DNA of 64,000 bases from Octopus vulgaris (Eukaryota), in contig OX597831.1 of assembly GCA_951406725.2 (NCBI GenBank), positions 43,524,001-43,588,000 of the forward strand. Direction: 5' to 3'. How positions within the stretch are numbered: the stretch's first letter is position 1; each line of letters begins with the position of its first letter. The position numbers are program-made. This document shows positions 6,001 to 36,000 of the stretch, in pieces.

Positions 6001-9000
6001 ATTTTTATGGTCATTTACTAATATTGGTTTCAAATTTTGGCACAAGGCCAGCAATTTTAGGCAAGAATGTAAGTTGATTACATCGACCCCATTGCTCAAG
6101 TGGTACTTATTTTATCAACCCCAAAAGGCTGAAAGGCAAAGTTGACCCAGGCACCACTTGAACTCAGAATGTAAAGTTGGAAGAAATGCTGCTAAGCAGT
6201 ATTTTCAGTATGGTAAGGATTCTGCCTGCTTGCCACCTTAAAGTCAGTTACTACTATCAAAACTTTCTATAACCAACCCATCTGAGGGCACCTCTGGTTC
6301 TATTATACTAAGTTTTCTGCACTGAAGAGTTTATATTTCAAGTAAAACTTTGCATCATTATTTTATGTAAGAAACTTTTGTTAAATTAACTTTTATATAC
6401 ATGAGCTGATAAAGAAAAAGAGATCAGTTATCTTTGGGATTATTCTTGATCTCATCTTATCTTCACCTCATTATTCCTGGGTGGGCCATTACTTATTCAT
6501 TTCAGTTGATTTTGAAATGAATAAGTAATGAATTTCATCAGATATATCTTCAGAAAAGGGATTTACAGATGGATATAAGACATTCTGGCACAGCTGTTTT
6601 GGCTCCACCTATGTGATGTTGATTTGATACTGACTTATTTAACATAAGACGTTTTGTCCATGGAACATTTTCACACCATGCAGATTTTGTTTTTATTCTA
6701 GTTAGCAATGACTAAAGTTTGTTTAGCTTTCTGCTCCACTTTGTGTGTATGATGGGAGGTGAAATATTGACAAGACATGAAAAAATTCTCAATGGAACTA
6801 CATAGATCTTTGACAAAGTAGAATTGGCAAGGAATTTAAATTTTGGCACTGAGAGCTGAAAGACCATAATTCTTCAATAAGATAAGTTATGATTTTATTT
6901 TTCATTAATATTGTTACATTTTATTTGATTATTTATTGTTATGATACGTATATTTCTATATTTATTTGTTAATTATTATATGTTAAGATATATACATTTA
7001 TTTTATTATTTCAGACCTGAAGAGTGGCTATATTTTATTATTATCGATTTAAAGATATAGTCATGAAACGCAGGTAGTCAATTTAATGTTTATTTAATTT
7101 AGAGAATTTTTTAATAATATTTATTATAGTATATTTAAATTTTTTCTATATGATTTAATATAGATAATATCTTTCACTATTGAATTACTTAATAGAGGTT
7201 ATTTCTCTTAATCATAAACATATATATATATATATATAAAGAGTGAGAGAGAGAGAGAGAAACATATATACTAAATTACCTTGATTGCTACAAACACATC
7301 TGTCTCTCTATTTGCTTATGTGTGTCTTTTTCTTTTATGCACATGTGAAGAGTGAACTTGTTTGTAACAATCAGAGTCATTTGATACGTATTAATGTTTC
7401 TTTTGTTTTCTCTCTGCATCTGCATGTTCATGTGTGTGTGTGTGTGTGTGTGTTTGCTCCCAGTGCCAAAAAGTACTGTTACTAAAACAGGTTCAATTTC
7501 CAGTCAGCCGAGTCAAACCGTCAGCATCCAAACAGCTACGCCCTATCGTCTCGTTTTTTGTTAACCGACACGATAACTTGATTAATTACTGATGAGCATT
7601 TTAAAGACCCTATCTAACCTAAGTTAACACAATTACACAGCAAATAATCATCTATAATTTAACAAAAATTCCAGTGGAAACCCCCCCCCCCAAAAAAAAA
7701 AAAACATACAAAACAAACAAAAAACAAATGAAGGAAAGAAACAGAACAAAGACAGGTGTATGATCCATGCAGCATAGGCTTGCTTTCATTTTATTGCTAG
7801 ACTAGGTTTTGTTCCAGATATTGGTCATCAGACATTCGACCAACTAAACTCACGGATCCCAGAAAAACTGGATGCAGCTTGTTCAGCAACACATACTCTG
7901 TGACGTAATACGTACATTGACAATATCCATATTGATATGTAATAGAAGGGCACCAACTGAAATGGTGTTGCAACTGACAAACAGTAGCGTCAGTAGTAAT
8001 ATCGCTATCACTACTACCGACTACTGCTTACTACAACTATTAACAGTGATGAGGATGAGAAAAATAATTATAATAATGACAATAATAATAATAATAATAA
8101 TAATAATAATGATAATGATAATAATAATAATAATGATAATGATAATAATAATGATAATGGTAGTAATTGTAATGGTAATAAGTGACAGCAATAATGCTGT
8201 TTATCAGATGAAAAGAAATTATTTCAAGTGAAAGAAAATATCATGCAAAAATATTGGACATTTCATAGTGATTTCAAATTTCATGAAATGATAAATTAAA
8301 AAAAATATACATTTAAAAAAAATAATTAATGATGATAATAATAATAATAATAATAATGGTAATAATGGTAATAATATTACTAATGATAGTAGTAGTAATT
8401 TTATAAAACAATAATAATAAAAAATATTATGTTTCATAATAATAAAAAAATAAAAAATCTACAAATTAATATTATCCAAGAAAGTGAGATGTAGTTTTGG
8501 AAAATCTCAATCCTGGAACTATTTGTATAATAATAATAATCATAATGATAATAATAATAATAATAATGATAATAATAATGATGATGATTATGATTTCATA
8601 AATAGGCACAAGACCTCAAGTTTTGGGAAAGGGAACAAACAGTCGATTGTATCGACCCCAGTATTTGACTGGTACTTGATTTTATCGACCCTGGAAGGAT
8701 GAAAGGTAAAGTCAACCTTGGCGAGAATGGAGCTCAGAACGTAAAGGGCCATAACTGAAGGCCACATGGCTGTTTTTATTTGACGCTTTACTGGTTCTGG
8801 CGATTGACCACCCTTAAATAATAATAATAATAATAATAATGATGATGATAATAGTAATAATAATAATAATAATAATAATAATAGTAATGGTAATGAAAGT
8901 GTTCACTAATGTCTGACAAGAAATTCCATACAGATACTTTTGCAGACACACACATACATTGAATGTATCTGGAAACAATTATTTTAAATGAACAACTGTA

Positions 9001-33000: not shown

Positions 33001-36000
33001 AAAAAAAAAGCACGTACAACAGACATGGATAACTCAGCATTAAAGAGATTTACCATTTTTTGTACCAAAACATTAGAAATTAATGACCTCCATATAAGAG
33101 ATATGCACAGATATATTTTTGGTTGGCACAGTTTGGTAGCATTTTCCCCTCCCTCTGTTTTGCCATGTTTCGTACTTTTTCCTATTTTGTAGGAATATGC
33201 TAATATACTGACTCTGGACAATAATTTTCGATGCCTTTGAAAACTTTAATAAGTAGAAATGTTCTTTGCAATTTCATTTTTTTTCTTTTATAAATATTTT
33301 TGTCCAACGTTTAGATTATTATTATTATTTTTTTTTTTTCAATGATCCAACCAACAACATGGTTTTTCATTAGAGACTTCGTTTTGTATAATGCAAGGTG
33401 AGAAATGTTGAATTCAGTTAGAAAAGAATGCCCGTTTACATCCGAGACATTTTGTCATTATAGCAATCTTGAATTGGTTAGGTGAGCTTGACGGCACAAA
33501 ATACTTGCAAGATACGGTATTTATCCAGGACAATTTAGCTGAGTTAATTTACTACCGGGGATGACTCCAGTTATAAACCAACAGATTCTTTACAGAAAAT
33601 AGAATCCAAAAGTTTTTTCTCATATATATGTATATAAATATATATATATATATATATATGTGTGTGTGTGTGTGTGTGTGAGTGTGTGTATTCATATATA
33701 TATATATATATATATATATAAATATATATATATATACATATATATATATATATGTATGTATGTATATATATCTCCCATTCAACAACACTTCCCATCCCAC
33801 TCTAACCTTAAATATATTTTCTTTTACAACCAATTTGAGGCCAAGTAAAACTGCGAGATCTACACTTTCAATAGAGGGTGATAAAATAAAAGCATCTTAC
33901 CACATCCCTCTCATTTCTACAAGTTATTAAAAGCAGGAAATCATAATCCGTAGGTCCTATATGATACATGCTTCTATCTGAACCACTATTTATTGGATGC
34001 AATTCTAAGAGAGTGGACTTCACAACAAAATAAAGATGTAGCACCAACATTAAAGAAAGACAAGTTGATTTTTGTGGTAGGTGAGACTAAATAAAATGAC
34101 TTTTGCCTTTTTTTTTTAATGTTTTCTTTCTGTAAAATTATTTGATATGGCTTGTTAGATGACAGTTGAAGTCAATGCGGTCTTTGCAAATAATGTGACA
34201 AATGCCACAACGGAAAGGCTCTCCATTGTGTGAATGAAAGCCGTTGTGTAGGACATAGGTGGAACAGTCATCAAAAACAATGTGGCAGTGAACACATTTG
34301 AAAACCTTGCCCTTCAAGATGAGATAAGTCAGCATTGATTGATCATCAGCATCTCTGTCTTTCTGGCTCATTACAACTAATCCAGGGGAGGGACTTGAAG
34401 ATTGTGGAGCATTGTCATAGTCACTGCCGTTAGTGCTACTACATCGGCGCATTGGATGTTTCTGTTTGCGAGTATTGGTCGATGATGAGGTCGAAGAGGA
34501 TGAGGGCATCATTCGAGAGTTGAGATTGAGACGAGTTATGGCAGATGGCAATTGCTGTCCTCCATCTTCATGGGGTGCAATGTTATCTGGAAGAAGAGCA
34601 CCATCAGGAGATTTGGAACTACATATACTGGAATTTTCTGGAGATTGGTGAGGGAGATTAGTAGCTGTTATGTCAGCATCTACCAAATTATCATAATGTG
34701 AAGTTTCATATCGAAAGATTTGATTACTGTTGGTTTCACGATTACTACTACTAATTATAGATTCTGAACTGAAACGACGATGACGGTTTACTGTTGTAAT
34801 CATGTCCACTGGTTCTTGGTTGGGAGGGATGTTTTCTTGTCCTTCCGAGATCTCTGATTTTTTAATATTTTCTGAATGTAATGAATGAGTGGAGAGATCT
34901 TCTGGATGGTCCATTGAGGGAGTGAATGATTTAGAGTTAATTGACTGGGCAATGGAGTTAATGGACTGTGGAACAAATGCATTAAGAGATGGAGCATTGG
35001 ACATTGGGGAGAGAGAGACTTTAGCTAAAGATTTACTCACATCTGGACTGTTATAAGCTAATGGTATATGACTAGAGTAATCAGGTTTACCTTCATCAGG
35101 GTCAATGATTAAGGATCCTGGTGGAGTGCTTGCCCCTGTGTGATCATAATCCCCATTGGGCATTCCTATGTCAGTACCTTGCCCATCAGAAAGAGAATAT
35201 ATCAAGGCTGGATTATACTGATTGGCATGGTGGGTGGCTACGTGGTCCTGTAGTTCAGGCCAAGATCCAAATGTCATTTGACAAAGTCGGCACCGTCGAT
35301 ATGTCATGCTCATGTGTCGGCGTTCATGCATTTTGTAGCTTCCACATTGGGCAAAAGTGCGGCCACAAATTTTACACTGATAAGGCTTTTCACCAGTGTG
35401 TACTCTCTCGTGGGTACGTAATGTACCAACCTACAAAAGAAAAAAAAAGAATAGTGATGAGATTATGAAAATTGAAATAAAGAGTTAGTTTTCAATCAGT
35501 AATTTTTTTACTTTAGGGTAGCTGAAGGAAATATTTGATTGACAGTAAATACATCGTTAACCCCATTTCCAACCATATTAATGTTGAAATGCAGTGCCTT
35601 TATTTCAATTAATTTAGTTAAGAAAAAGCAAAATATGAATTTAAGAACAGTAGCTGTTATTATTATTGGTTTGAAATTAAGGCAGCAAGCTGGCAGAATT
35701 GTTAACGTGCTGGACAGAATGCTTAGCAGTTTTTCACCCGTCACTGCGTTCTGAGTTCAAATTCCAACCAAGGTTGACTTTACTTTTCATCCTTTCATCA
35801 TCATCATCATCGTTCAACGTCCGTTTTCCATGCTAGCATGGGTTGGACAGTTCAACTGGAGTCTGGGAAGCCAGAAGGCTGCGCCAGGCCCAGTCTGATC
35901 TGGCAGTGTTTCTACAGCTGGATACCCTTCCTAACGCCAACCACTCCGTGAGTGTAGTGGGTGCTTTTTATGCGCCACCTGCACAGGTGCCAGACGAGGC

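What the first reader, a model, noticed from the sequence alone, without database searches (positions are those of the whole stretch)
7770..34137. Candidate ~26-kb 3'UTR on a 2.3-kb CDS
Seen: between the stop (34138) and the AATAAA plus GU-rich element at ~7.8 kb there are only a handful of SINE remnants (~8600, 9700, 15300-15700, 23100, 24300, 32200). Introns and the 1-7.5 kb flank carry roughly one or more repeats per kb. The region has no exon-like ORFs and many U-rich tracts on the gene strand. Inference: a single terminal exon under selection against insertions, which would be an extreme 3'UTR and a post-transcriptional regulatory hub on a transcription factor.
Basis: partly seen in the sequence, partly recalled or inferred. 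Interest (0 to 1): 0.8.

Follow-up and report, generated by a model that had tools for sequence, protein, structure and literature searches.

The report
Repeat-poor zone downstream of octopus gene
About 25 kb just after an octopus Ikaros-type transcription-factor gene is almost free of mobile-element copies and has a one-sided base composition; this fits a giant untranslated mRNA tail, but without RNA data it cannot be told apart from regulatory DNA.

Summary
The window is Octopus bimaculoides. The gene is an Ikaros/Hunchback-type zinc-finger factor on the minus strand, annotated as "zinc finger protein 271". Between the stop codon (34140-34138) and about 7.7 kb there are 5 repeat pieces, where 35 are expected from the rest of the window (Poisson P = 3e-10). 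Introns and both flanks carry 1.0-1.8 pieces per kb. I found a second feature with the same borders. The gene strand is pyrimidine/U-rich in 24 of 26 one-kb bins, against 17 of 38 outside. The skew turns at 7.56-7.69 kb, beside the AATAAA (7795-7790) and its GU/U-rich element, and at about 33.1 kb. The introns lack this skew. A strand-specific, RNA-level unit fits this better than enhancer DNA does. A single 26-kb 3'UTR remains unproven. There are 64 canonical poly(A) hexamers on the gene strand inside the zone, and they are not depleted against composition-matched expectation. The skew begins about 1 kb after the stop. The median octopus 3'UTR is 350-380 nt. No RNA data or other cephalopod genome could be consulted. 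My odds: long 3' extension about 0.35, transposon-free regulatory DNA about 0.30.

The parts
34138..35430 (-). Terminal coding exon of the Ikaros/Hunchback-type zinc-finger gene. It holds the last DNA-binding fingers, a long linker and the two C-terminal fingers. The TAA stop is at 34140-34138.
   Evidence: ORF. Pfam C2H2 hits. 99.5% identity over 430 aa to P0121. The acceptor TTTTGTAG|GTT is at 35431/35430.
41085..41442 (-). Middle coding exon with three C2H2 fingers.
   Evidence: tblastn of P0121 residues 20-139 at 100% identity, with splice-site contexts. Pfam hits.
47530..48093 (-). First coding exon seen in the window. The NCBI model starts at the ATG at 47586. The frame stays open up to the ATG at 48093, through a Gly/Pro-rich low-complexity stretch.
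   Evidence: There is weak collinear similarity of the upstream part to a 774-aa mollusc homologue (E 0.039 and 0.014).
33101..34137 (-). First ~1 kb after the stop. It has no repeats but also no strand skew, and is the likely conventional (proximal) 3'UTR. ATTAAA lies at 34120 and AATAAA at 33994. A (TA)n/(CA)n tract lies at 33622-33771.
   Evidence: purine excess on the + strand is -0.051 per unique base here, against +0.099 in the zone.
7691..33100 (-). Repeat-poor, AT-rich zone with strand skew. Unique sequence has GC 0.30. Tandem repeats make up 15% of 7770-34137. The gene strand is U>A and C>G. This is the candidate 3' extension.
8602..8747 (+). SINE remnant inside the zone, oriented antisense to the gene.
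15255..15704 (+). SINE remnant in two pieces (15255-15469 and 15638-15704), oriented antisense to the gene.
23090..23219 (.). Short piece of another repeat family, with up to 5 matches elsewhere in the window.
24216..24321 (.). Degraded SINE fragment; a weak match only.
   Evidence: 74-76% identity over 63-80 bp.
32127..32339 (+). SINE remnant flanked by (AAT)n tracts, oriented antisense to the gene.
7790..7795 (-). Candidate distal poly(A) signal, AATAAA.
7692..7754 (-). GU/U-rich downstream element ending in a T13 run. G11 follows at 7691-7681.
   Evidence: Read directly. In the scan of 64 hexamers, 6 sites including this one reach the top score of 17 G/T out of 20.
6692..7154 (-). A-rich island beyond the zone, holding 10 AATAAA and 4 ATTAAA on the gene strand. 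It could act as a fail-safe termination cluster (this is an inference).

Best explanation
Most of 7.7-33.1 kb is transcribed in the orientation of the Ikaros/Hunchback-type gene, as a 3' extension of its terminal exon. On this view the gene makes a short 3'UTR ending within about 1 kb of the stop. In some cells, probably neurons, it also makes longer isoforms by skipping poly(A) sites. The most distal site is AAUAAA at 7795 with its GU/U-rich element.

Mobile-element insertions would have been removed by selection because they bring poly(A) signals, splice sites and double-stranded structure into the RNA. The U/C-rich composition of the gene strand would reflect RNA-level sequence requirements, namely binding of U-rich and AU-rich element proteins of the ELAV/Hu type, which in flies suppress proximal sites.

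Shown: the repeat poverty, the strand skew, their shared borders, and the signal at the distal border. Inferred: transcription itself, continuity of the exon, use of the distal site, and the tissue.
For: - Repeat poverty is confined to the 3' side of the terminal exon. A SINE sits 227 bp upstream of the exon in the intron, while the next 3.3 kb downstream is clean.
- The gene strand is pyrimidine-rich in 24 of 26 one-kb bins in the zone, against 17 of 38 elsewhere. The unique sequence of both introns shows no such skew.
- The cumulative skew curves turn at 7562-7691 and at about 33.0-33.1 kb, so the skew domain and the repeat-poor domain coincide. The distal turn lies beside the AATAAA and GU-rich element.
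- The skew is spread over many U- and CU-containing 5-mers and is unchanged after removing homopolymer runs.
- Gene-strand AATAAA counts are 27 against 88 on the opposite strand in the zone. In the next 4 kb they are 21 against 0.
- UAUUUAU occurs 25 times against 12.3 expected on the gene strand (z 3.5), and 10 against 7.8 on the other strand.
- All 5 SINE alignments in the zone are antisense to the gene.
- CpG observed/expected is 0.32, like the introns (0.38-0.40), so this is not a hypomethylated valley.
- No coding or known RNA gene was found in the zone.
- Precedent: brain mRNAs with 3'UTRs over 18 kb exist (abstract of PMC3638137).
Against: - No RNA evidence of any kind was available.
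- The median octopus 3'UTR is 350-380 nt (passages of PMC9699675). The mean in bobtail squid is 1,785 bp (passages of PMC10771462). 26 kb would be about 70 times the octopus median and longer than the >18 kb cases in the abstract I read.
- 63 other canonical hexamers on the gene strand would have to be bypassed. AATAAA is not depleted against Markov expectation (24 against 26.3-29.9; z -0.5 to -1.1). The asymmetry comes from composition plus an excess on the other strand.
- 5' splice-site-like motifs are not significantly depleted (5 against 7.1 expected).
- The skew starts about 1 kb after the stop.
- Tandem repeats fill 15% of the zone. (TA)n tracts would form perfect hairpins with arms of up to 102 nt. 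Sequence complexity is lower than in introns. These point to weak base-level constraint.
- Squid 3'UTRs often contain repeats.
- SINE orientation is biased over the whole window (31 of 35 alignments), including the flank beyond 7.7 kb, so it does not mark the zone.
Confidence: 0.35

Rival explanations
1. The zone is a transposon-free region of regulatory DNA. It would be a 3' enhancer or chromatin domain of a developmental transcription factor, and insertions would be selected against at the DNA level. The mRNA would end within about 1 kb of the stop.
For: - Transposon-free regions up to 80 kb, significantly associated with developmental and transcriptional regulators, are established in vertebrates (abstract and passages of PMC2241635).
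- The gene is an Ikaros/Hunchback-type factor.
- Canonical hexamers lie 17 and 143 nt after the stop.
- The skewed, repeat-poor domain begins about 1 kb after the stop, as if it were a separate unit.
- 12 of 123 blocks of 200 bp are complex and richer in GC, and could be discrete elements.
- The prior strongly favours short octopus UTRs.
Against: - Enhancer DNA gives no reason for a consistent strand skew over 25 kb.
- Vertebrate regions of this kind typically reach 5' of the transcription start (76% of genic ones of at least 10 kb in zebrafish). Here the introns and the 16 kb upstream have normal repeat density.
- CpG observed/expected is 0.32, so this is not a hypomethylated valley.
- The zone is of low complexity and 15% tandem repeat.
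- The longest fully repeat-free stretch is 8.9 kb, under the 10-kb class.
Confidence: 0.3
2. The zone is transcribed on the minus strand, but not as one exon of this mRNA. It could be an independent long non-coding RNA starting about 1 kb after the stop. It could instead be a large intron inside the 3'UTR, leading to a small last exon at about 8.04-7.77 kb.
For: - The skew domain starts at about 33.1 kb, not at the stop.
- A complex 250-bp block at 7770-8040 precedes the AATAAA and follows pyrimidine-rich sequence with AG dinucleotides.
- Miura et al. note that downstream 'lincRNAs' and long UTRs are easily confused (abstract).
Against: - No strong donor-like motif lies near 33.1 kb. The nearest is GGTAAG at 33901.
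- The gene's real introns are repeat-rich and unskewed, so an intron would not explain the two features.
- No promoter-like CpG-rich sequence was seen.
- No Rfam family reaches its threshold.
Confidence: 0.12
3. The zone has no function of its own. It would be a compositional domain built largely by slippage of polar microsatellites and A-rich tails. Insertions would be rare there or quickly lost through deletion between (TA)n tracts. The AATAAA at its edge would be a coincidence.
For: - Tandem repeats are 15% of the zone, against 0.9-8.5% in the flank, intron B and upstream; intron A has 17%.
- Trinucleotide entropy is lowest in the zone.
- Several of the most asymmetric 5-mers (UCAUU, AUCAU, UCAUC) are the complement of the (AAT/AATGAT)n-type tails of the plus-oriented SINEs.
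- There are 295 inverted-repeat pairs from (TA)n tracts.
- PAS hexamers are frequent in AT-rich DNA.
Against: - A tenfold deficit with P = 3e-10 and borders at a terminal exon is hard to get by chance.
- LINE-type machinery usually favours AT-rich targets (general knowledge, recalled).
- The skew persists in sequence outside the tandem repeats and after removing homopolymers.
- The SINE copies in the zone are no more diverged (80-89% identity) than the others.
Confidence: 0.15

Closest known systems
Neural 3'UTR extensions made by alternative polyadenylation (mammalian brain: Miura et al. 2013, PMC3638137; Drosophila ELAV-dependent extensions: PMC8055025 and PMC11551757, seen as search listings only)
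   Same: The candidate lies directly downstream of the stop of a regulatory gene. The sense strand is U-rich. Proximal canonical sites are present, together with a strong distal AAUAAA with a GU-rich element. AU-rich motifs are enriched on the sense strand.
   Different: At 26.4 kb it would exceed the '>18 kb' cases named in the abstract I read. No transcript evidence exists here. There are 63 internal hexamers with no depletion. The skewed part starts about 1 kb after the stop.
Transposon-free regions of vertebrates (Simons et al. 2007, PMC2241635)
   Same: A stretch of tens of kb with very few mobile-element insertions, next to a developmental zinc-finger transcription factor, most of it not obviously conserved coding sequence.
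   Different: It is in an invertebrate. It lies only on the 3' side, while the introns and the upstream region are repeat-rich. It is interrupted by 4-5 SINE remnants, so the longest clean stretch is 8.9 kb. It has a strong strand skew and is CpG-depleted.
Post-transcriptional control of Hunchback-family genes through their 3'UTRs (C. elegans hbl-1 and let-7 family miRNAs; Drosophila hunchback and Nanos/Pumilio). This is recalled, not taken from any call.
   Same: The gene belongs to the same family by the names given to its mollusc orthologues and by its C-terminal finger pair. The idea of a long regulatory UTR fits the family's history.
   Different: Only 2 let-7 7-mer matches (0.7 expected) and 3 Pumilio-type motifs (5.1 expected) lie in 26 kb, so there is no enrichment. 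The known UTRs of that family are about a kilobase or so (recalled).

Membership tests
3'UTR (terminal-exon sequence of this mRNA) | Present in the mature transcript, contiguous with the stop codon and without a splice | not testable with these tools
   No RNA-seq, long-read or EST resource for cephalopods was available. The supplements of PMC9699675 (isoform tables) were closed.
3'UTR (terminal-exon sequence of this mRNA) | Ends at a poly(A) signal with a downstream GU/U-rich element | tested here: met
   AATAAA at 7795-7790 and a GU/U-rich stretch at 7754-7692. The site is not unique: 64 hexamers lie on the gene strand and 6 of them reach the same top downstream score.
3'UTR (terminal-exon sequence of this mRNA) | Sense-strand depletion of poly(A) signals and donor-like motifs inside a very long exon | tested here: inconclusive
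   AATAAA: 24 observed against 26.3-29.9 expected (z -0.5 to -1.1); antisense 75 against about 50. GTRAGT: 5 against 7.1 expected; antisense 14 against 9.4.
3'UTR (terminal-exon sequence of this mRNA) | No coding exons or other genes within it | tested here: met
   0 of 10 ORFs tested (out of 196 ORFs of at least 50 aa) reach a Pfam cut-off. Rfam gives 0 hits at gathering score. No tRNA genes.
3'UTR (terminal-exon sequence of this mRNA) | Strand-specific composition in the gene's orientation | tested here: met
   24 of 26 one-kb bins are pyrimidine-rich on the gene strand. The turning points are at 7.56-7.69 kb and about 33.1 kb. The first ~1 kb after the stop is not skewed.
Transposon-free region (vertebrate sense) | At least 10 kb (or at least 5 kb) with no transposon-derived sequence | tested here: inconclusive
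   Three clean stretches of 8.9, 7.4 and 6.5 kb meet the 5-kb class; none reaches 10 kb. Only repeat families with at least 2 copies in the window are detectable.
Transposon-free region (vertebrate sense) | Associated with a developmental or transcriptional regulator | tested here: met
   The gene is an Ikaros/Hunchback-type C2H2 factor.
Transposon-free region (vertebrate sense) | [quoted passage not shown] | tested here: not met
   Introns have 0.99-1.42 repeat pieces per kb and the upstream 16 kb has 1.39 per kb. The feature description comes from passages of PMC2241635.
Transposon-free region (vertebrate sense) | Repeat-free state kept at the orthologous locus in other species | not testable with these tools
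Ikaros/Hunchback-like zinc-finger family (the gene) | A cluster of DNA-binding C2H2 fingers, plus two C2H2 fingers at the extreme C-terminus | tested here: met
   Pfam C2H2 hits in exons 2 and 3, including residues 406-428 of the 430-aa terminal exon. The C-terminal pair and the ending ...CHLTSHIK are shared with the 774-aa homologue P0002.
Ikaros/Hunchback-like zinc-finger family (the gene) | Full-length similarity to proteins named as family members | tested here: met
   Mollusc proteins named Helios, Ikaros-like, ikaros family zinc finger or Pegasus match at E 1e-28 to 1e-85. The Helios and Ikaros-like ones cover the whole exon; the ikaros-family and Pegasus ones cover 31%. The names are automatic annotations, not tested functions. 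The octopus record itself is named 'zinc finger protein 271'.

The most novel reading that the evidence does not exclude
The whole stretch 35430-7770 is one 27.7-kb terminal exon. It would give a 3'UTR of about 26.4 kb on an Ikaros/Hunchback-type transcription factor, longer than the '>18 kb' brain 3'UTRs named in the abstract I read. It would be kept nearly free of mobile elements by selection on the RNA. It sits in the animal lineage with the largest invertebrate microRNA expansion, so it could be a very large landing platform for RNA-binding proteins and microRNAs that time a neural fate factor.
Probability: 0.2. Interest if true: 0.8.

Novelty: new member of a known kind. Interest (0 to 1): 0.5.

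Why it matters
If the zone is a 3'UTR, it would extend the known size range of 3'UTRs. It would also tie a Hunchback/Ikaros-type factor, a family known for timing cell fates, to very heavy post-transcriptional control in cephalopods. In that lineage, 3'UTR length and the microRNA repertoire were singled out as the outstanding RNA features (passages of PMC9699675).

If it is DNA-level regulatory sequence instead, it would be an invertebrate, 3'-only counterpart of vertebrate transposon-free regions, with an unexplained strand skew.

In either case, repeat poverty and strand skew sharing the same borders is a simple signature that can be read from sequence alone. It could be searched for genome-wide and checked against existing octopus RNA data.

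Tried and rejected
- Mitochondrial insertion (NUMT) as the source of an AT-rich, skewed block. Reading with table 5 gives 12 ORFs of at least 150 aa, all low-complexity or microsatellite-derived and none gene-like. Rejected.
- A young giant mobile element or hidden coding gene. 0 of 10 zone ORFs pass Pfam. Not supported.
- Known RNA genes. Rfam gives 0 hits at gathering score over the window. At E up to 1 there are 100 sub-threshold hits. Nearly all are repeat-type miRNA families (mir-297, mir-466, mir-3149, mir-1277) lying on (TA)n/(TG)n tracts, which I take as artefacts. 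No tRNA genes.
- Selection against poly(A) signals or donor sites on the gene strand. Not significant.
- Seed matches for 13 conserved miRNAs (seeds recalled from memory). Summing the rows gives 21 observed against 14.6 expected on the gene strand, and 10 against 12.0 on the other strand. No claim is made.
- A large intron in the 3'UTR. No good donor lies near the proximal border.
- A convergent or tandem neighbour gene in 1-7769 that would fix the transcript end. 8 ORFs, none above a Pfam cut-off. The most gene-like ORF (3704-4033, minus strand) found 1 weak relative among 1.84 billion representatives (E 1e-5). Nothing found.
- SINE orientation as a marker of the transcript's extent. It is biased over the whole window, so it is uninformative.
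- A very permissive similarity search of the zone against the rest of the window was swamped by simple repeats (23% 'covered'). It was replaced by the tandem-masked run.
- Literature. Searches and the passages read gave no report of a cephalopod 3'UTR of this size and no mention of this gene. PMC9712504 has 0 occurrences of 'hunchback' or 'ikaros'. One search returned 0 papers, and one search failed on a term format.
- The spliced coding sequence was searched exon by exon only; the joined sequence was not searched.

Full report
**What the locus is.** The terminal-exon translation (window 34141-35430, minus strand) matches the NCBI protein "zinc finger protein 271 [Octopus bimaculoides]" (P0121, 568 aa), listed at 100% and at 99.5% over 430 aa by tblastn. 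The window is therefore O. bimaculoides. Mollusc proteins named Helios and Ikaros-like match over the whole exon at 33-40% identity; those named ikaros family zinc finger and Pegasus match 31% of it at 51-55%. The protein ends with the paired C-terminal fingers and the same last residues as a 774-aa mollusc homologue. It is an Ikaros/Hunchback-type factor. The exons on the minus strand are ...-47530, 41442-41085 and 35430-34138, with clean splice sites. NCBI's model starts at the ATG at 47586 (568 aa, 1.7 kb). The frame is open up to the ATG at 48093, which would give about 2.2 kb. Similarity of that extra part to the homologue is weak (E 0.014-0.039). I searched the exons one by one and left out the joined coding sequence.

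**The observation.**
- The stop is TAA at 34140-34138.
- AATAAA is at 7795-7790, followed by a GU/U-rich stretch at about 7754-7692 and a T13 G11 run.
- A self-comparison of the window gives 54 repeat pieces: 11 in 1-7769, 5 in 7770-34137 and 38 in 34138-64000. That is 1.42, 0.19 and 1.27 per kb, and 27%, 4% and 35% of bases.
- With tandem repeats masked and more sensitive settings, the zone again has 5 pieces (2.9% of bases), against 0.99-1.80 per kb and 30-40% of bases in the flank, both introns and the upstream region.
- From the outside rate, 35 pieces are expected and 5 are seen (Poisson P = 3.1e-10). The four longest repeat-free gaps of the window are all in the zone. The two next longest (1.65 and 1.49 kb) contain or adjoin exons 1 and 2.
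- The method cannot see repeat families that have only one copy in the window.
- No ORF looks like an exon.

**A second feature with the same borders.**
- In unique sequence the zone has GC 0.30, against 0.33-0.39 elsewhere.
- On the gene strand U exceeds A and C exceeds G (54.6% pyrimidine). Both introns and both flanks are near 50%.
- 24 of 26 one-kb bins in the zone are pyrimidine-rich on the gene strand, against 17 of 38 outside.
- The cumulative curves turn at 7691 (purine excess) or 7562 (A minus T), and at about 33.0-33.1 kb.
- The slope is +0.099 per unique base inside, and between -0.05 and +0.03 everywhere else.
- The skew is not caused by homopolymer runs. It is spread over many U-rich and CU-rich 5-mers, some of which are complements of the SINE-tail type repeat.
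- The first ~1 kb after the stop is repeat-free but not skewed.

**Poly(A) signals.**
- The gene strand of the zone has 27 AATAAA and 37 ATTAAA. The opposite strand has 88 and 36.
- The first sites lie 17 and 143 nt after the stop.
- Against Markov simulations of the tandem-masked zone, gene-strand AATAAA is not depleted (24 against 26.3-29.9). The opposite-strand count is in excess (75 against about 50; z 3.4-3.5).
- The 7795 site has one of the best downstream elements. Six of 64 sites reach the top score, so it is good but not unique.
- Directly beyond the zone the pattern flips: 21 gene-strand AATAAA against 0 on the plus strand in 4001-8000. These include a cluster of 10 AATAAA and 4 ATTAAA at 6692-7154.

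**Other tests.**
- UAUUUAU is enriched on the gene strand (25 against 12.3; z 3.5). Donor-like motifs, Pumilio-type motifs and 13 recalled miRNA seed matches are not significantly different from expectation.
- CpG observed/expected is 0.32 in the zone, 0.38-0.40 in the introns and 0.30 upstream. The zone is therefore not a hypomethylated valley.
- Tandem repeats are 15% of the zone. (TA)n tracts give 295 inverted-repeat pairs, with perfect arms of up to 102 nt. Sequence complexity is lower than in introns, and 12 of 123 blocks of 200 bp stand out as complex.
- The dominant SINE family points the same way in 31 of 35 alignments across the whole window, antisense to the gene. This includes 5 of 5 in the zone and 4 of 4 in the flank beyond it, so it does not delimit a transcript.
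- I found no NUMT, no Pfam domain, no Rfam family and no tRNA in the zone. I also found no neighbour gene in 1-7769.

**Weighing the explanations.**
- Repeat poverty alone has a well-known DNA-level explanation. Transposon-free regions up to 80 kb lie beside developmental regulators in vertebrates (PMC2241635, abstract and passages).
- Those regions usually include the 5' end of the gene. Nothing about them predicts a strand skew.
- Here the poverty starts at the terminal exon, the introns are ordinary, and a strand-specific composition fills the same interval and turns beside a good poly(A) signal. That pattern is what an RNA-level unit on the gene strand would give.
- Against a single giant UTR stand several facts. 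The median octopus 3'UTR is 350-380 nt (PMC9699675, passages). The mean in bobtail squid is 1.8 kb (PMC10771462, passages). The longest cases in the abstract I read are ">18 kb" (PMC3638137). There are many undepleted internal signals. The skew has a 1-kb offset from the stop. Cephalopod UTRs commonly hold repeats (PMC9068888, passages).
- I therefore rank a long 3' extension with several poly(A) isoforms first at about 0.35. Regulatory DNA follows at about 0.30, a neutral compositional domain at about 0.15, and another kind of minus-strand transcript at about 0.12.

**What stayed unchecked.** I had no cephalopod RNA data and no second cephalopod genome. The ELAV mechanism is cited from search listings only. 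The hbl-1/let-7 and hunchback/Pumilio precedents are recalled from memory.

Noticed in passing
window 1-64000 (e.g. 2266, 6072, 15226, 32100, 40582, 44583, 54534): The dominant SINE family has a 3' (AAT)n tail on the plus strand. It points the same way in 31 of 35 alignments to one reference copy, including outside the gene. This may mean the whole window lies in minus-strand transcription units, or that copies arose by local tandem duplication (there are arrays at 42.7-45.2 kb).
   Followed up: partly
window 6692-7154 (minus strand): An A-rich island holds 10 AATAAA and 4 ATTAAA on the gene strand within about 460 bp. In 4001-8000 there are 21 gene-strand AATAAA against 0 on the plus strand. 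No plus-strand AATAAA or ATTAAA lies between 3457 and 8295.
   Followed up: partly
window 7681-7704: A T13 run is followed directly by a G11 run on the gene strand (C11 A13 on the plus strand), at the point where the cumulative purine curve turns.
   Followed up: no
window 47586-48093 (minus strand): The NCBI protein model starts at an internal ATG. The reading frame continues about 170 codons upstream through a Gly/Pro-rich repeat (tandem repeats at 47719-47869) to an ATG at 48093. A short N-terminal motif there weakly resembles a mollusc homologue. The annotated protein may be truncated at its N-terminus.
   Followed up: partly
window 34141-35430 (minus strand): The window's translation differs from P0121 at two residues in the linker (APHEDGGQQLP against APPEDGGLQLP). 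This suggests another individual or assembly version of the same species.
   Followed up: no
window 41506-42354: About 850 bp of (TG)n/(GA)n-type simple sequence sits directly upstream (in gene orientation) of exon 2. It gives long spurious His/Thr/Ser-rich ORFs.
   Followed up: no
window 7770, 9570, 12170, 13970-14369, 16170, 18570-18969, 21170, 25970, 31770, 33370 (200-bp blocks): Twelve of the zone's 123 blocks of 200 bp are complex and richer in GC (at least 0.36) amid low-complexity AT-rich sequence. They are candidates for discrete functional elements at the DNA or RNA level.
   Followed up: no
window 22087-22388, 23477-23777 and eight other (TA)n tracts: Long (TA)n tracts are self-complementary, with arms of up to 102 nt at 100% complementarity. 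They also pair with each other over 1-2 kb. If transcribed they would be long AU duplexes and possible ADAR substrates. They also cause all the sub-threshold Rfam 'miRNA' hits.
   Followed up: partly
window 61185-61329: A 63-bp tandem repeat (2.2 copies) lies inside a GC-richer repeat element and overlaps a 132-aa ORF on the minus strand.
   Followed up: no
window 3704-4033 (minus strand): A 109-aa ORF of normal complexity has no Pfam family and a single weak relative (E 1e-5, 613 aa, 5 matched stretches) among 1.84 billion representatives. It is probably a fragment of a mobile element or a chance ORF.
   Followed up: yes
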